A stretch of 64,000 nt of DNA. Source: Bacilli bacterium (lineage in GTDB: Bacteria; Bacillota_I; Bacilli_A; RF39; UBA660). Made by a program: the position numbers and the translations under genes. The stretch is from NCBI GenBank assembly GCA_017536505.1, contig JAFXHG010000027.1, positions 1,409 through 65,408 of the forward strand, given 5' to 3'. The notes beneath the pieces were generated by a model, which saw only the letters and a list, made by a program, of their open reading frames with translations, made no database searches and had not been told where the DNA came from. This document shows, in pieces, positions 12,828-27,179 of the stretch (position 1 is its first letter; each line of letters starts with the position of its first letter).

Positions 12828-13606
12828 CTTACTTTTTTTTCTATAAAACTAACAAGATAATACATTAAAGCAGCAACAATACAAAGTATAAATATACCAC
12901 TTATAACTAAACTTAAGTTAAATACTTGTGATCCATATAGAATTAAATAACCTATACCTTGTTTTGATACTAAAAATTCCCCCATAATAACACCTATCAA
13001 ACTCATACTAACGTTTATTTTTAATGCACTTATAATAGTATTTATACTATTAGGAAGTATTAGTTTAAAAAATATTTGATACTTTTTCGCACCTAATGTT
13101 TTCATTAATTTAATCTTGTTTTGATTAGTACTATTAAATCCTTCATATACATTTATAATAGTTATAATTAGAGATATTAAAAGAGCCATAACTATGATAG
13201 ATTTAATACCAGCCCCAAACCAAATAATAATTATTGGTCCCAAAGCTACTTTAGGTAAACTATTTAAAATAGTAAGATAAGGTTCAATAACTTTTTGTAT
13301 TCTTTTATTCCACCAAAGTATACTAGCAATCACTGTACCAAGTATTGTAGCTATACTAAAACTTAAAAAAGTTTCATAAACAGTTACCCAAATATGACTA
13401 AATAAATCTTTAGTATTATATAAATTTATAATAGTATCTAATACTTTTTTAGGACTAGAAAATATAAATGTATTTATAATATTAAAATCAGCTAATATTT
13501 GCCAAATGACAATAAAAATAATAAGTATTAATATTTGAAAAAGAGAAATAATAATTTTTTCTTTTTTTAATTTCTTTAAAAAATTTAAATGTTCTTTACT
13601 ATACAT
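12815..13606 (-). CDS. ABC transporter permease (NitT/TauT/SsuC-type)
   Basis: Six TM segments with a binding-protein-dependent transport signature region (...LMKTLGAKKYQIFFKLILP...). The start ATG overlaps the ATPase stop (ATGTATAG). The track start 13693 is an upstream extension. Confidence 0.8.
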   Translation of the reverse strand: MYSKEHLNFLKKLKKEKIIISLFQILILIIFIVIWQILADFNIINTFIFSSPKKVLDTIINLYNTKDLFSHIWVTVYETFLSFSIATILGTVIASILWWNKRIQKVIEPYLTILNSLPKVALGPIIIIWFGAGIKSIIVMALLISLIITIINVYEGFNSTNQNKIKLMKTLGAKKYQIFFKLILPNSINTIISALKINVSMSLIGVIMGEFLVSKQGIGYLILYGSQVFNLSLVISGIFILCIVAALMYYLVSFIEKKVRKKM

Positions 13607-13934
13607 GGAAATCAATATCCTTCCATATCTTATCATAATAATAAGAAAATTTATTATCTTTTCTATTATTGATAGGTGTACTTCTATTTTCAAGTTCTAT
13701 ATCATAAATACTTTTTATAACTGCAGGTCTACTTGATAGAACTATTACTTTAGAGCAAACACTAATTGCTTCTGCGATATCATGGGTAATCATAATCATA
13801 GTCTTTTTTTCTTTTTTTAAAATATTATAAATATCATCAGAAATAGCTAATCGACTTTGATAATCCAAAGCAGAAAAAGGTTCATCCATCAAAAGCAAGT
13901 CAGGATTAGTTGCGAGTGTCCTAATTAGGGCAAC
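13599..13934 (-). pseudogene. ABC transporter ATPase, C-terminal fragment (Walker B, D-loop, H-loop)
   Basis: The open frame extends beyond the track ORF to read (Y-I-R-R-V)[23 protein letters not shown]...ITHD. Walker A and the signature motif are absent here and are found at 26767-27179. Confidence 0.9.
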
Positions 13935-13956
13935 TCTACGAATATAATGTAGACAC
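13935..13956. repeat. left terminal inverted repeat / att half-site
   Basis: TCTACGAATATAATGTAGACAC. The first 10 nt are the exact reverse complement of the last 10 nt of 26745-26766, and 17 of 22 match overall. Confidence 0.85.
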
Positions 13957-14067
13957 TAATACCTTATCAAAGCCTTGAAAAATAAGGCTTTTAAAATTTC
14001 GTTTTTTTATGTTTAACTTGTATTTTTAAGATTTTTATTACTTTCCGACAAATTGTCGGGAACAGAG

Positions 14068-14925
14068 TTATTTATTTTCTATTTGTTTTTTATCATCTAT
14101 ATATTGATAATTTAAAGCATTTTGATTTGATATAGCCGATTTTTTAATTGCTTTCTCATAAGATTTTCTAGCATCATTAGCAACTTGTCCACCTTTACGA
14201 GCTACTTTCATATTTTCTTTAAATCCTTGTGGATGTTCAGATTCTGCTATATCACGAGTAGCGATTTCGCCTAAATCAGTAAGTAGAACTTCTATATCAG
14301 TCATATTATCTCGTAAAGATTCTTTTCTAATTCCTTTAAATTGTTTGTATTCATTTGCTTTCATACCTGACCAACTTTTATATATTTCATTAGTAAGCAT
14401 TGCATATTCGCGAGTTTTTTCAACGCCTCCATCTTTCCAAACATCAGTTAATCTTTTTCTTTCTTGAATGCCTTTAATTCTTTTAGAAATCCATGCCTCA
14501 TCATAACCTTTAGCACGATATGTATCTATTGCTCTTTGCATTGTTAATGATGGGTCAAACACTTCATCAATTCTTTCTTTACCTAAATGAGCTAACCATT
14601 GTTTTATAGGTTCAGCATTTTTACTAGGTACAGATTCAATTATTCTAAACATACCTTCAATATCACAAACATCAGTCATACGATATTTACCGTCAGTAGC
14701 TTTCAATTTCAACTGTCTAGTAATACTAGACGTTTCAAAATTTTCTTCTTTTAATAACTTATTTTTTAACCAATTCCAATATTTTCTAGGTTCTTTACTA
14801 TCAGCTAAAACACCAACAATATCAACGATACTAATATAATATTTTTCTTCATCCTTATCCCAAATAGTTCTAATTGTTTCATTGTTAAATATTTTATTAA
14901 TTAAATGCATATTATCTTGTTTCAT
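14068..14925 (-). CDS. Bro-N domain protein (DinD / phage antirepressor-like)
   Basis: The N-terminus ...FNNETIRTIWDKDEEKYYISIVDIVGVLADSKEPRKYWNWLK is Bro-N-like. The 285-aa DinD-type architecture fits. Confidence 0.6.
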   Translation of the reverse strand: MKQDNMHLINKIFNNETIRTIWDKDEEKYYISIVDIVGVLADSKEPRKYWNWLKNKLLKEENFETSSITRQLKLKATDGKYRMTDVCDIEGMFRIIESVPSKNAEPIKQWLAHLGKERIDEVFDPSLTMQRAIDTYRAKGYDEAWISKRIKGIQERKRLTDVWKDGGVEKTREYAMLTNEIYKSWSGMKANEYKQFKGIRKESLRDNMTDIEVLLTDLGEIATRDIAESEHPQGFKENMKVARKGGQVANDARKSYEKAIKKSAISNQNALNYQYIDDKKQIENK

Positions 14926-15058
14926 TTATTCACCATCCTTTACTATATATTTTTAATATGTATTAAAATATGTATTAAGCAAAAGGTTATAGAAGTGTAT
15001 AACCTCTCACTTATATTATTCTACAAAAGTTTTGAATTTCCTTTTTTATTTTTGAATT

Positions 15059-25290: not shown

Positions 25291-26230
25291 TTTAGTATTA
25301 AATTTAGTTATACCTTGTTATAACGAAGAAGAAGCACTACCACTAACAAAAAAAGAACTTGATAAAAAAATGAGTAGTTTAATGGAAGAAGGTTTAATTA
25401 GTAAAAACAGTAAAGTGGTTTTAGTTAATGACGGTTCTAAGGATAAAACGTGGGAAATTATAACTAAGGTACATAAAGAAAATGATATGTACGTAGGAAT
25501 TAATTTAACTAGAAACAGAGGTCATCAAAATGCCTTGCTTGCAGGTTTAATGTATGCAAAAAATCACGCAGATATCTGTATTAGTATGGATGCTGATTTA
25601 CAAGATGATATTAATGTAATGGATGATATGATAAAAAAGTATAATGCCGGTGCTGATGTTGTTTATGGTGTTCGAAGTTCAAGAAAAAAAGATACATTCT
25701 TTAAAAAGTTTACTGCAGAATTTTTTTATAAATTAATGAATGTTATGGGTGTAGAAGTTGTATTTAATCATGCAGACTGTCGTTTAATGAGTAAAAGAGC
25801 TTTAGAAGGCTTAAGTGAGTTTAAAGAAGTTAATTTATTCTTAAGAGGTATAGTTCCTCAAATTGGATATAAAACTGATATTGCTTATTATGAAAGAAAC
25901 GAAAGAGTAGCGGGAGATTCTAAATATCCATTAAAGAAAATGTTAGCGTTTGCTATTGATGGAATAACTTCATTTAGTATAAAACCTTTAAGAATAATTA
26001 CTTCAATTGGATTTATTATTTTACTACTTAGTTTTGTAGTTTTGGTTTATTCTGTTATTATGAAATTAATTGGTAATACTGTATCTGGTTGGTCGTTTAT
26101 TGTTTGTTCAATTTGGTTAATAGGTGGTATTCAAACTCTATGTCTTGGTGTGATAGGAGAATATATTGGTAAAATATATAAGGAAACTAAAGCGAGACCT
26201 AGATATATCATTGAGTGTGTACTTGATTAA
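25277..26230 (+). CDS. GT2 polyprenyl-phosphate glycosyltransferase (GtrB / CsbB-like)
   Basis: VIPCYNEEEAL, VNDGSKDKT and DADLQDD motifs, plus two C-terminal TM helices. Confidence 0.85.
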   Translation: MKKNNLVLNLVIPCYNEEEALPLTKKELDKKMSSLMEEGLISKNSKVVLVNDGSKDKTWEIITKVHKENDMYVGINLTRNRGHQNALLAGLMYAKNHADICISMDADLQDDINVMDDMIKKYNAGADVVYGVRSSRKKDTFFKKFTAEFFYKLMNVMGVEVVFNHADCRLMSKRALEGLSEFKEVNLFLRGIVPQIGYKTDIAYYERNERVAGDSKYPLKKMLAFAIDGITSFSIKPLRIITSIGFIILLLSFVVLVYSVIMKLIGNTVSGWSFIVCSIWLIGGIQTLCLGVIGEYIGKIYKETKARPRYIIECVLD

Positions 26231-26251
26231 TGAGTATATAGGTTTAATTCA

Positions 26252-26290
26252 AAAACAAATCCCTAATAATACCTATTAGGGATTTGTTTT
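26252..26290. terminator. bidirectional terminator
   Basis: AAAACAAATCCCTAATA-ATACC-TATTAGGGATTTGTTTT, a perfect 17-bp stem. Confidence 0.75.
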
Positions 26291-26687
26291 ACTCATTATT
26301 CAGCAGAGAATAACAATAATCATATACTAACAAATGATTATTTATTTCATCGTTAATAACTTTATCTTTAAAATCATTTTCATATATATTAAATATCATT
26401 TCAATAGAGAAATGTTTTTTTTCTTTTTCAGTAAGTTCTAAATACTTGACTAAAAAGAATAATAAATGTTTATATTTACTAAAATTAGTTATTACTTTAG
26501 TATAATTTGGATCTAATATACTTAAAACTTGTTTTAATAAAATAATCATATCTCTTACATTAAAATCTACATTGAAATTTTTATTTTCTAACAAATAAAT
26601 TGCTAATCTAATTTTATCAATATCACTTAAATTATCATATTTTTGAATTAAGTCTATAACTTTTTGTGAATTTTTATCTAATAACAT
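26289..26687 (-). CDS. hypothetical protein (132 aa), last gene before the right element end
   Basis: ORF only. No recognisable family. Confidence 0.35.
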   Translation of the reverse strand: MLLDKNSQKVIDLIQKYDNLSDIDKIRLAIYLLENKNFNVDFNVRDMIILLKQVLSILDPNYTKVITNFSKYKHLLFFLVKYLELTEKEKKHFSIEMIFNIYENDFKDKVINDEINNHLLVYDYCYSLLNNE

Positions 26688-26738
26688 AATATACCTCTTT
26701 TCCTTTATTTATAAGGGTTATAAGCTGCTTGTAAGTAA

Positions 26739-27179
26739 TTATTTGTGTGTATACAGTATTCGTAGAACCCTTTGTCTCATACCTCCTGATAAATTATCAG
26801 GATAACTATATATAAAATCTTTAAGACCATATGTATTTAATAAATTAATTACATGTTCTTTAGTTTCTTTATTTAGATTTTTGTTTATTTCAAGTCCAAG
26901 TAAGCAATTATCTAATATATTTCTCCATTCAAATAGTGAATCTTGTTGGAGCATATATCCAATTTTAGAACCTTTTTTTAATTTTATATCTCCACCAGAT
27001 TTTTCTTCTAATCCACAAAGAACAGAAAGAATAGTACTTTTACCACATCCACTAGGTCCAACAATAGCTACAAAATCACCTTCTTTTAAATTGAAAGTAA
27101 AATCCTCTACTGCTAAAGTTTCACCTTCTTTGGTATGATAAATTTTTTTTAAGTTTTTAATTTCTAAGACATTATCCAT
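26739..27179 (-). pseudogene. ABC transporter ATPase, N-terminal fragment (Walker A, Q-loop, signature), runs into element DNA and stops
   Basis: MDNVLEIKNLKKIY...GPSGCGKST...LSGGMRQRV, then the element-derived tail LRILYTHK and a stop. Confidence 0.9.
26745..26766. repeat. right terminal inverted repeat / att half-site
   Basis: GTGTGTATACAGTATTCGTAGA, the inverted partner of 13935-13956. Confidence 0.85.

What the first reader, a model, noticed from the sequence alone, without database searches (positions are those of the whole stretch)
13599..27179. ABC-transporter ATPase gene split in two by a 12.8-kb insertion between the signature motif and Walker B
Seen directly: the minus-strand ORF at 26739-27179 encodes Walker A (GPSGCGKST), the Q-loop and LSGGMRQRV. 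It then runs into unrelated sequence (LRILYTHK, stop).

The frame ending at 13599 is open back to 13934. It reads ...[26 protein letters not shown]...ITHD, which is Walker B, the D-loop and the H-loop.

Joining the two at the shared GTT codon gives an uninterrupted [28 protein letters not shown], the normal ABC layout.

The downstream permease start overlaps the C-fragment stop (ATGTATAG), so the insertion should also be polar on the permease.

Inference: either the transporter is inactivated, or the element is an intervening element whose excision restores the gene, as serine-recombinase elements do for sigK or spsM in sporeformers.
Basis: partly seen in the sequence, partly recalled or inferred. 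Interest (0 to 1): 0.65.

Follow-up and report, generated by a model that had tools for sequence, protein, structure and literature searches.

The report
Mobile element splitting an ABC-transporter gene
A 12.8-kb mobilizable genetic element with a serine-recombinase integrase sits at one exact spot inside an ABC-transporter ATPase gene of an uncultured ruminant-gut bacterium; it belongs to a widespread family that always uses this spot, so the split gene is real but is an ordinary consequence of a known kind of mobile DNA.

Summary
The minus-strand ATPase gene is cut after codon V138. The two halves re-join into a 248-aa protein that is 96% identical, end to end, to intact proteins in relatives, and a related contig is collinear across the empty site.

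The insert (13935-26768, 12,834 bp) is an integrative mobilizable element. It encodes a 537-aa large serine recombinase, a MobV-type relaxase, an AAA_25/DnaB-like ATPase, XRE regulators, and a gtrA / GT-C / gtrB surface-glycosylation cassette.

Its ends are a perfect 10-nt inverted repeat around a GT crossover dinucleotide. GT is invariant in six other family members at the same site.

Copies at least 98.9% identical in DNA lie at this GT in at least four other host backgrounds, whose flanking genes are only 66-80% identical. The element has therefore moved recently.

Insertion inactivates the ATPase. Conservative excision would restore it exactly, but I found no excision product. Nothing supports a host-programmed, skin/SPβ-like role.

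This is a new member of a known kind (site-specific serine-integrase IMEs that disrupt genes). Interest is modest. A sister element carries a complete vanG-type operon.

The parts
26769..27179 (-). Host ABC ATPase gene, 5' part (M1-R137: Walker A, Q-loop, LSGGMRQR signature). The ORF runs on through the core V138 codon (26768-26766) and 8 element-encoded codons to the stop at 26739.
   Evidence: PF00005, E 1.4e-20. Collinear with L081 7943-8413.
26745..26790 (-). attL (B-GT-P'): ATGAGACAAAGG|GT|TCTACGAATACTGTATACACAC. The crossover GT is at 26768-26767.
13935..26768 (-). Integrative mobilizable element, 12,834 bp, counted with one copy of the GT core.
13911..13956 (-). attR (P-GT-B'): GTGTCTACATTATATTCGTAGA|GT|TGCCCTAATTAGG. 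The crossover GT is at 13934-13933. The P and P' arms form a perfect 10-nt inverted repeat (TATTCGTAGA / TCTACGAATA).
13599..13934 (-). Host ABC ATPase gene, 3' part (V138-V248: Walker B LLLMDEP, D-loop, H-loop). There is no start codon of its own at the junction.
   Evidence: Collinear with L081 8409-8747.
12815..13606 (-). ABC permease (263 aa, BPD_transp_1). Its ATG overlaps the ATPase stop.
15059..16672 (-). Large serine recombinase, 537 aa (Resolvase + Recombinase + Zn_ribbon_recom + DUF4368). The YLRLS22 motif holds the putative nucleophile.
   Evidence: (phrog_95 integrase, 1e-107). (SprA/YokA full length, TnpX N-terminal domain). (31% identical to TndX).
14068..14925 (-). Bro-N-domain protein, 285 aa. 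It is the outward-facing end gene and matches the PADLOC candidate defence family PDC-S13.
   Evidence: (E 2.6e-108).
17113..18552 (-). MobV / Mob_Pre-type relaxase, 479 aa (HYDEDTPH motif).
   Evidence: PF01076, 46.5 bits, above cut-off. (NCBIfam MobV, 84.6 bits, below the cut-off of 100).
18553..18900 (-). Intergenic region with nested inverted repeats. It is a candidate oriT by inference only.
18901..19875 (-). AAA_25 / DnaB-like ATPase, 324 aa (replication/maintenance module).
19856..20086 (-). 76-aa protein, first gene of the leftward operon. It has no family match. It is a possible small DNA-binding or directionality factor by inference only.
   Evidence: 98.7% conserved in L089.
20392..20925 (+). 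XRE-family regulator, 177 aa, divergent from the transfer operon. It is the likely element repressor.
20912..21400 (+). 162-aa membrane protein co-transcribed with the regulator. It is conserved in L089.
21487..22460 (.). Start of the cargo region: a double-HTH regulator (21487-21936, minus strand) and a 133-aa ORF (22059-22460, plus strand).
   Evidence: The region is replaced in L089.
22767..26230 (+). Three-component glycosylation cassette: GtrA-like flippase (22767-23240), GT-C/PMT_2 glycosyltransferase of 689 aa (23221-25290), and a GtrB/PgfS/ArnC-like polyprenyl-phosphate GT2 (25277-26230).
   Evidence: (PgfS, 241 bits, below the cut-off of 500; ArnC-like, 149 bits). Bidirectional terminator at 26252-26290.
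26289..26687 (-). Conserved 132-aa all-helical protein of unknown function. It starts 52 nt downstream of the truncated ATPase ORF on the same strand, so it can be read from the host promoter.

Best explanation
This is an integrative mobilizable element (IME). Its large serine recombinase recognises one specific site inside the ATPase gene of an NMT1-type (NitT/TauT-family) ABC importer. That site is the DNA encoding ...MRQRV|ALIR..., just after the LSGG signature.

**Integration.** The recombinase exchanges strands at a GT dinucleotide. The exchange is between the chromosomal attB and an element attP made of 10-nt perfect inverted repeats. This shows in the sequence as hybrid attL and attR sites.

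**Effect on the host (inferred).**
- The ATPase is cut into a Walker A/signature half and a Walker B/H-loop half that has no start codon, so the transporter is off.
- The translationally coupled permease is at best expressed by read-through from the element.

**Life cycle (inferred from gene content).**
- An XRE repressor controls a leftward operon: 76-aa protein, AAA_25 ATPase, MobV relaxase, recombinase, Bro-N protein.
- On derepression the recombinase excises a circle. This restores the ATPase gene exactly.
- The relaxase nicks an oriT, and a co-resident conjugative element transfers the DNA.
- The element then re-integrates at the same site in the new host.

**Cargo (inferred).** The gtrA / GT-C / gtrB cassette probably adds a sugar to a surface glycopolymer or protein. 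That would change phage or host recognition.
For: **The two fragments are one gene.**
- The join gives a 248-aa protein with full-length homologues at up to 96% identity.
- A relative is collinear across the empty site.

**The integrase and its sites.**
- All large-serine-recombinase domains are present.
- It aligns over its full length to SprA of SPβ, and its N-terminal domain matches TnpX.
- The element ends are TATTCGTAGA-GT...GT-TCTACGAATA.

**One dedicated site across the family.**
- Six other family members (recombinases 76-99% identical) sit at the same codon of ABC genes that are only 53-69% identical in protein. In one case the figure is 89%.
- GT is the only invariant shared core among them.

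**Recent movement.**
- Ten contigs carry the identical recombinase.
- In them the terminal 2,738 bp of the element are 98.9-99.8% identical to the window.
- In the eight of these contigs that extend into host DNA, the adjacent host DNA is only 66-80% identical.
- The genes downstream differ in the contigs that reach that far. The break in identity falls exactly at the GT.

**Mobilizable, not conjugative or viral.**
- A relaxase is present, and there are no T4SS or phage structural genes.

**Modular cargo.** Cargo differs between copies.

**Transcription.** The backbone and the gtr genes appear in bovine metatranscriptome contigs. One contig crosses attR into an ABC 3' fragment.

**Literature.** Site-specific serine-integrase IMEs integrate within genes and disrupt them (PMC5704250, PMC5357655).
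Against: - No excised circle (attP) or restored attB of this same allele was found. Only assembled contigs, which drop rare variants, could be examined. The attP pattern search gave only chance hits.
- The relaxase scores below NCBIfam's MobV cut-off (84.6 against 100 bits), and I could not recognise the N-terminal HxxR motif by eye.
- The oriT is only guessed.
- No helper conjugative element is visible in the window.
- Metatranscriptome contigs may contain DNA carry-over and have no strand information.
Confidence: 0.85

Rival explanations
1. It is a host-programmed intervening element, in the manner of skin, SPβ or the fdxN element. On this reading the host keeps the element in the ATPase gene. 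The host excises it under a defined condition (differentiation, starvation for the transported substrate) to switch the transporter back on.
For: - The recombinase is of the same class as SprA, SpoIVCA and XisF (XisF model, 123 bits, below cut-off).
- Excision would be scar-free.
- A very conserved 132-aa gene sits where the host ABC promoter can read into it, in the window, in L089 and in the cupin-targeting L097.
- Coluzzi et al. raise the same idea for IMEs by analogy.
Against: - The site is empty in the sampled close relatives: L081-L088, and more than 100 intact 248-aa homologues.
- Nearly identical copies occur in distant hosts.
- Cargo varies, and a relaxase is present.
- The target is an ordinary importer, not a differentiation gene.
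- The 132-aa gene is barely represented in the metatranscriptome contigs and has no recognisable fold.
- No excision product was seen.
Confidence: 0.06
2. It is a defective, immobile remnant. On this reading an old insertion can no longer excise, and the ATPase is a permanently dead pseudogene.
For: - Several family members are clearly decayed. They have no relaxase, or only a relaxase remnant: L093, L099, L103, L106.
- No excision product was detected.
Against: - In the window copy every backbone ORF is full length.
- Both arms are perfect.
- Copies at least 98.9% identical exist in at least four other host backgrounds.
- Both host gene halves are still free of further mutations (96% identity of the join).
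Confidence: 0.05
3. It is a phage satellite or cryptic prophage rather than a conjugatively mobilised element.
For: - A Bro-N protein with a strong PHROG match (1.4e-97), a phage-type integrase PHROG, XRE repressor-like regulators, and a DnaB/primase-like ATPase.
- gtr cassettes are classic temperate-phage cargo (general knowledge).
Against: - No capsid, terminase, portal, tail or lysis genes in 12.8 kb.
- A Mob_Pre relaxase is present.
- The attP pattern is not found in IMG/VR.
Confidence: 0.03
4. It is an assembly or binning chimera, or two paralogous ABC remnants that only look like halves of one gene.
For: The window comes from metagenome-type data. The region is AT-rich and contains elements shared between genomes.
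Against: - Both junctions are present in contigs of four independent runs at the depth of the flanks.
- The same architecture appears in more than 15 independent contigs.
- The fragments are collinear with a single gene in L081, with no overlap and no gap.
Confidence: 0.01

Closest known systems
Site-specific serine-integrase IMEs of Firmicutes (e.g. streptococcal IMEs in rumA, traG, maff2, snf2; Coluzzi et al. 2017, Guédon et al. 2017)
   Same: - A single large serine integrase sits at one end, facing outward.
- A relaxase is present but no T4SS.
- Integration is inside a protein-coding gene and disrupts it.
- The shared core is very short.
- Cargo is modular.
   Different: - The target is new: an NMT1-type ABC ATPase gene, cut between the signature motif and Walker B.
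- The recombinase is at most 37% identical to anything in the annotated plasmid and phage collections.
- The hosts are uncultured low-GC gut Bacilli and their relatives.
- The ABC target is not mentioned in either paper.
Tn4451/Tn4453 (TnpX) and Tn5397 (TndX) of clostridia
   Same: - A TnpX/TndX-type large serine recombinase with a DUF4368 tail.
- A Mob_Pre/MobV relaxase (TnpZ in Tn4451).
- A 2-bp crossover and a circular intermediate.
- TnpX needs no directionality factor (as cited).
   Different: - Only 31% identity to TndX.
- The core is GT, whereas for Tn4451 it is GA (from memory).
- This family has one dedicated site; Tn4451 has low target specificity.
- The cargo and the regulation module differ.
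skin (sigK), SPβ (spsM) and other sporulation-excised elements; the fdxN element (XisF)
   Same: - A large serine recombinase (SprA matched over its full length).
- An intragenic insertion whose precise excision rebuilds the gene.
   Different: - No link to a terminally differentiating cell.
- No directionality factor identified.
- The element is horizontally mobile and polymorphic, not fixed.
- The target gene is a transporter.
Phage/ICE-borne gtrABC-type three-component glycosylation cassettes (Shigella serotype-converting phages; Gram-positive CsbB/GtcA/YfhO, Pgf systems)
   Same: - A GtrA-like flippase, a GtrB-like polyprenyl-phosphate GT2 and a large GT-C transferase.
- The cassette is carried as accessory cargo on a mobile element.
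   Different: - It is carried here on an IME, not a phage.
- The acceptor and the sugar are unknown.
- The GT-C belongs to the PMT_2 type, with only weak similarity to named families.

Membership tests
Large serine recombinase (integrase type) | N-terminal resolvase catalytic domain with a serine nucleophile | tested here: met
   PF00239, E 6.5e-23. The YLRLS22 motif is visible in the translation. The TnpX and TP901-1 N-terminal domains are matched in the PDB.
Large serine recombinase (integrase type) | Recombinase domain plus zinc-ribbon domain C-terminal to the catalytic domain | tested here: met
   PF07508, E 5.7e-24. PF13408, E 2.8e-13. DUF4368, E 7.8e-6. Full-length alignment to SprA/YokA.
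Large serine recombinase (integrase type) | Short att sites of imperfect dyad symmetry around a 2-bp crossover; attL and attR are hybrids of attB and attP | tested here: met
   10-nt perfect inverted repeat around GT. GT is the only core shared by all seven occupied ABC sites and by the cupin site.
Large serine recombinase (integrase type) | Catalyses attP x attB integration and attL x attR excision | not testable with these tools
   There is indirect support only: near-identical copies sit at the same GT in different hosts.
Integrative mobilizable element (IME) | Encodes its own integration/excision enzyme and has defined ends next to an empty-site allele | tested here: met
Integrative mobilizable element (IME) | Encodes a relaxase (and has an oriT) but no mating-pore genes (VirB4, T4SS) | tested here: inconclusive
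   Mob_Pre is above Pfam's cut-off (46.5 against 25.5 bits), but NCBIfam MobV is below its cut-off (84.6 against 100). No T4SS domain appears in any element ORF. The oriT is only suggested by inverted repeats.
Integrative mobilizable element (IME) | Demonstrated excision and mobilisation by a helper | not testable with these tools
   No attP or attB product appears in contigs. Horizontal spread is inferred.
Developmentally excised intervening elements (skin / SPβ-spsM type) | Interrupts a gene needed only in a terminally differentiated cell, and excision is tied to that programme | tested here: not met
   The target is a NitT/TauT-family ABC ATPase. No sporulation gene turned up among the window ORFs scanned. 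No excision product was seen.
Developmentally excised intervening elements (skin / SPβ-spsM type) | Vertically inherited and fixed in the lineage | tested here: not met
   The site is empty in the sampled close relatives. Copies at least 98.9% identical lie in hosts whose flanks are 66-80% identical.
Developmentally excised intervening elements (skin / SPβ-spsM type) | Dedicated recombination directionality factor under host developmental control | tested here: inconclusive
   The 76-aa and 132-aa conserved ORFs match no family or fold. TnpX-type enzymes may not need one.
Tn4451/Tn4453 family | TnpX orthologue with low target specificity | tested here: not met
   Only the TnpX N-terminal domain matches (E 6e-12). 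Identity to TndX is 31%. This family uses one dedicated site.
Three-component (GtrA / GtrB / GT-C) glycosylation system | GtrA-family flippase, polyprenyl-phosphate GT2 and GT-C transferase encoded together | tested here: met
   PF04138, E 5.4e-22. PF00535, E 8.7e-25, with PgfS/ArnC-like NCBIfam matches below the equivalog cut-offs. PF13231, E 4.3e-10.
ABC transporter ATPase (NitT/TauT type) | Walker A, Q-loop, signature, Walker B, D-loop and H-loop in one polypeptide | tested here: met
   This holds only for the joined sequence. Each fragment alone is incomplete. One homologue is named as a NitT/TauT family ATP-binding protein. NMT1 binding proteins lie next to the gene in other hosts. In the window the binding-protein gene is at 35284-36276.

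The most novel reading that the evidence does not exclude
The element may be wired as a target-gene-sensing, reversible switch. The extremely conserved 132-aa gene sits directly downstream of the truncated target gene, in the window, in L089 and in the cupin-targeting relative L097. 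In the integrated state it would be transcribed from the host operon's promoter. If it acts as a directionality or activation factor, induction of the ABC operon (demand for the substrate) would trigger excision. That would both restore the transporter and launch transfer. A second, unrelated serine-recombinase element hits the neighbouring permease gene in three other genomes. That would make this operon a contested landing pad.
Probability: 0.06. Interest if true: 0.7.

Novelty: new member of a known kind. Interest (0 to 1): 0.3.

Why it matters
**Annotation.** The two short 'ABC ATPase' ORFs are one gene interrupted by a mobile element. The same trap exists in many gut metagenome-assembled genomes: the recombinase cluster alone has 592 member sequences.

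**Biology.** This defines a widespread family of small serine-integrase elements in ruminant and other gut microbiomes with three features:
- a single, portable landing site in a conserved transporter gene;
- recent spread between hosts that differ by 20-34% in the flanking DNA;
- exchangeable cargo.

The cargo seen here includes surface-glycan modification genes, candidate anti-phage genes, toxin-antitoxin-like genes and, in one relative, a complete vanG-type glycopeptide-resistance operon.

**Tools.** The well-defined attB/attP pair (GT core, 10-nt perfect arms) is also a candidate new orthogonal integrase system for genetic tools in low-GC Firmicutes.

Tried and rejected
1. **Excision products in public runs.** All runs holding the locus are kept only as Logan contigs. 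The joints reported had only 20-34 matching letters on the shorter side and did not recur at the expected att join, so I read them as chance matches in AT-rich DNA. None joined 13934 to 26767.
   - Narrow lay-outs at both ends showed only further attL/attR junctions with other ABC alleles.
   - One 127-nt contig carried an empty site from a different allele.
2. **attP pattern search (ATTCGTAGAGTTCTACGAAT).** It found nothing in IMG/VR. It found three identical GC-rich chance matches in JGI metagenomes, with no similarity to the window.
3. **Species-representative genomes (genome contigs).** The best hit had only 69% identity, so this gave no same-species empty site. The empty-site evidence comes from metagenome contigs.
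4. **Promoter and terminator scans at both junctions.** Promoter-like hits were at chance level. No terminator lies between the Bro-N gene and attR.
5. **Rfam.** Nothing in 12500-28500 at E up to 0.1.
6. **The 132-aa conserved protein as a candidate directionality factor.**
   - No Pfam, PHROG, NCBIfam, PADLOC or PDB sequence hit.
   - The AlphaFold model is all-helical with pLDDT 73.
   - There is no Foldseek match with E below 5.
7. **The 76-aa protein.** No hits.
8. **Base composition.** The element's GC content (20-28%) does not differ from the flanks, so composition gives no boundary.
9. **Prophage reading.** Rejected, because there are no structural genes.

Full report
**1. The observation**

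On the minus strand, ORF 26739..27194 (ATG at 27179) encodes the first half of an ABC ATPase. It has Walker A (GPSGCGKST), the Q-loop and LSGGMRQRV. It then runs for eight unrelated codons (LRILYTHK) to a stop.

The frame that ends at 13599 reads ...[27 protein letters not shown]...ITHD...DFHV*. This is Walker B, the D-loop and the H-loop.

The next gene, a 263-aa BPD_transp_1 permease, starts at 13606. Its ATG overlaps the ATPase stop (ATGTATAG).

Joining the fragments at the shared GTT codon gives a 248-aa protein. More than 100 intact 248-aa proteins match it at 82-96% identity over 100% of its length.

A contig from a related metagenome-assembled genome (L081, GCA_015059155.1, 87-91% nt identity to the window) is collinear through the site:
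- L081 7943-8413 matches window 27237-26767.
- L081 8409-9575 matches window 13937-12780.

Both junctions are present in contigs of four independent public gut-metagenome runs at the depth of the flanks. The two pieces are halves of one gene, not paralogous remnants. The insert is 12,834 bp (13935-26768).

**2. The junctions**

Read on the minus strand:
- attL is ATGAGACAAAGG-GT-TCTACGAATACTGTATACACAC.
- attR is GTGTCTACATTATATTCGTAGA-GT-TGCCCTAATTAGG.

The two element arms next to the host DNA are a perfect 10-nt inverted repeat (TATTCGTAGA / TCTACGAATA). They show further partial symmetry outwards (7 of the next 12 positions, counted by eye). The arms flank a GT.

The reconstructed attP is thus a typical serine-integrase site, and attB is ...ATGAGACAAAGR-GT-TGCCCTAATTAG.

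I compared seven occupied ABC sites from different contigs:
- The base after GT differs between attL and attR in L089, L093 and L099.
- The base before GT differs in the window.
- GT is therefore the only shared core, and so the crossover dinucleotide.

Because GT is not palindromic, it fixes the orientation. In every locus the recombinase gene is co-oriented with the ABC gene.

**3. Gene content**

From attR inward:
- A 285-aa Bro-N protein. It has a full-length match to the PADLOC candidate defence family PDC-S13 (E 2.6e-108).
- A 537-aa large serine recombinase with Resolvase, Recombinase, Zn_ribbon_recom and DUF4368 domains. It hits phrog_95 'integrase' (1e-107) and aligns over its full length to SprA/YokA of SPβ. 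Its N-terminal domain matches TnpX in the PDB. It is 31% identical to TndX and at most 37% identical to anything in the annotated plasmid and phage collections.
- A 479-aa Mob_Pre/MobV-type relaxase.
- A 350-bp intergenic region with nested inverted repeats, a candidate oriT.
- An AAA_25/DnaB-like ATPase.
- A 76-aa protein with no family match.
- Divergently, an XRE regulator with a small membrane protein.

Then comes a cargo block:
- a double-HTH regulator and a 133-aa ORF;
- a GtrA-like flippase, a 689-aa GT-C (PMT_2) glycosyltransferase, and a GtrB/PgfS/ArnC-like GT2;
- a strong bidirectional terminator.

Last, next to attL, is a 132-aa all-helical protein of unknown function.

The element has no T4SS, capsid, terminase or lysis genes. 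This is the gene set of an integrative mobilizable element.

**4. The family**

The recombinase belongs to a very abundant gut-metagenome clade. Its 90%-identity cluster has 592 members.

I sampled contexts for recombinases 99, 86, 82, 80, 79 and 76% identical to the window's (L089, L106, L099, L101, L093, L103).
- All lie at the same codon of an ABC ATPase gene.
- Where the contig reaches upstream of the ATPase (L089, L099, L103), an NMT1-type binding-protein gene precedes it, giving a binding protein / ATPase / permease operon.
- The host ATPase fragments are only 53-69% identical in protein to the window's, or 89% in L101.
- Element sizes range from 5,976 to 12,834 bp.

Cargo differs between copies:
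- DUF5680 and SocA_Panacea in L089;
- two large proteins of 599 and 499 aa, with at most a faint Pfam hit, in L099;
- an ABC ATPase cluster in L106;
- a complete vanG-type operon in L093. There VanG, VanT-G, VanW and VanR score above NCBIfam cut-offs, while VanXY-G and VanS match but fall below theirs.

One sister lineage (77% identical; L097, L098) has changed arms (TCTTTGAATA). It sits in a cupin gene at ...AAAAAGAGCA-GT-TGGTTTAG. It shows how target specificity shifts together with the att arms.

Copies without an intact relaxase also lack the AAA_25 ATPase and the 132-aa gene. These look like decaying derivatives.

**5. Is it mobile now?**

The window's exact recombinase protein occurs on 47 contigs. 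Its exact truncated ATPase fragment occurs on 3.

I examined ten contexts carrying the identical recombinase:
- The last 2,738 bp of the element (recombinase to attR) are 98.9-99.8% identical in DNA to the window.
- In the eight contexts that extend into host DNA, the adjoining ABC 3' fragment and permease are only 66-80% identical.
- Where the contigs reach past the permease, the genes beyond it differ: adh_short, NTP_transferase, ArsP_1 or AsnA.
- The drop in identity falls exactly at the GT.

The same element has therefore entered the same site in at least four other host backgrounds very recently. This is the strongest argument for an active, horizontally moving element and against a vertically kept, host-programmed one. 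Some of these copies (L111, L114, L115) carry the gtr cassette directly beside the recombinase, with no relaxase.

**6. Excision**

I found no direct evidence.
- All runs are available only as assembled Logan contigs. These drop rare variants and gave no 13934|26767 joint.
- One 127-nt contig in run X3 is an empty site, but it comes from another allele. It has 7 differences in the 30 nt on the 3' side.
- An exact-pattern search for attP found nothing in IMG/VR and only chance GC-rich hits in JGI contigs.

Bovine metatranscriptome contigs cover the backbone (13921-20236) and the gtr genes (23800-26250), but hardly the host flanks or the 132-aa gene. One contig crosses attR into an ABC 3' fragment of another allele. 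This suggests the element's genes are expressed and that transcription can run out of the element towards the permease.

**7. Mechanism**

Shown by the sequence and comparisons:
- site-specific, conservative insertion at GT;
- disruption of the ATPase between the signature motif and Walker B;
- one dedicated site for the family;
- recent inter-host spread;
- modular cargo.

Inferred:
- The ATPase is non-functional while the element is integrated. The 3' fragment has no start codon at the junction; the first in-frame start is a TTG at 13898, with no visible ribosome-binding site.
- Permease translation is reduced, because it was coupled to the ATPase stop.
- The XRE regulator represses the leftward operon.
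- Derepression leads to excision of a circle (which restores the gene), relaxase nicking at an oriT, and transfer through a helper's pore.
- The recombinase may not need a directionality factor, as reported for TnpX (cited in PMC5704250).
- The gtr cassette decorates a surface polymer.

**8. Comparison with what is known**

Reviews of IMEs state that site-specific serine-integrase IMEs integrate within genes and disrupt them. The streptococcal examples are rumA, traG, maff2 and snf2. The authors speculate, by analogy with comK and sigK prophages, that excision might restore the target when it is needed (PMC5704250, PMC5357655).

The present element fits this kind in every tested respect. Its target, its recombinase lineage and its hosts are not among those described in the papers I could search.

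It is not a member of the skin/SPβ class of developmentally excised elements. It is polymorphic and mobile, and its target has no link to differentiation.

It is not a Tn4451-family member either. It has low identity to that family and a single dedicated site.

**9. Verdict**

The 'intervening element' analogy is not supported. This is a new member of a known kind, and interest is modest.

The most novel reading still open is that the conserved 132-aa gene, placed where the host promoter reads into it, couples excision to demand for the target gene. I give that about 6%.

Noticed in passing
window 27310-28008 (+): A 232-aa protein with a signal-peptide-like N-terminus. Its ubiquitin domain is 73% identical to eukaryotic ubiquitin over 73 residues but lacks the C-terminal GG. 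It also has a Listeria-Bacteroides repeat and a C-terminal hydrophobic anchor. The gene is absent at this position in the relative L081, and this exact sequence is not in the 15-billion-protein collection. A secreted or surface ubiquitin in a gut Bacilli lineage recalls Bacteroides fragilis BfUbb and may deserve its own look.
   Followed up: partly
L089 13048-14962; L093 12442-14411; L101 13207-14856 (equivalent to window ~13003): In three other genomes the permease of the same operon is also truncated, at residue ~206-210 of 263. It is followed directly by a second, smaller serine recombinase (331-435 aa; Resolvase and/or Zn_ribbon_recom domains) on the opposite strand. A second element family seems to target the permease gene. 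The window's permease is intact.
   Followed up: partly
L093 718-8161 (NCBI GCA_948755625.1, CAQAQY010000002.1): A sister element at the same ABC site carries a complete vanG-type operon. VanR, VanW, the VanG ligase and the VanT-G catalytic subunit score above NCBIfam cut-offs. VanS, VanXY-G and the VanT membrane subunit match but fall below theirs. This copy has no relaxase.
   Followed up: partly
window 14068-14925 (-): The Bro-N end gene of the element matches PADLOC's candidate single-gene defence family PDC-S13 over its full length (E 2.6e-108) and phrog_15286 (E 1.4e-97). In other family members this slot holds a RhuM/Fic protein instead.
   Followed up: no
window 17113-18552 versus L089 8098-9558: The relaxase is only 60% identical between two copies whose neighbouring genes (AAA_25 97.5%, recombinase 98.7%) are nearly identical. 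The relaxase module has been swapped by recombination.
   Followed up: no
window 27238-28603 and 35284-36276: Relative to L081 the window has two extra genes between the ATPase and the TMEM164 gene: the ubiquitin-like gene and a 169-aa P-loop kinase-like gene. A ~37-nt intergenic segment is duplicated on either side of the kinase-like gene. The operon's NMT1 binding-protein gene lies 8 kb away (35284-36276, minus strand), not adjacent as in other hosts.
   Followed up: partly
L081 3143-5215: The closest relative with an empty ABC site carries a different 690-aa large serine recombinase between a C11 peptidase and a GT2 gene, about 3 kb upstream of the ABC operon. Its N-terminal part is 67% identical in DNA to the window's recombinase. 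In the window that position holds a 206-aa collagen-repeat ORF instead.
   Followed up: no
L101 1-9066: In the locus whose host is closest to the window's (ABC 3' fragment 89% identical), the region upstream of the recombinase encodes a type VII secretion-like set: a 1,535-aa FtsK_SpoIIIE ATPase, a faint WXG100 hit and DUF4176. No attL lies within 10 kb, so that element is either much larger or composite.
   Followed up: no
window 13933-13962 and 26739-26768 in runs X1-X3 and X6: Contigs covering the attR-proximal end break at the GT, and there the end contig has roughly twice the depth of the host flank. In X1-X3 the contig covering the attL-proximal end also stops exactly at the GT (26768), with no excess depth. 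In X6 one contig runs through that junction. These metagenomes therefore hold the same element end joined to at least one other left-hand context, probably another host allele.
   Followed up: partly
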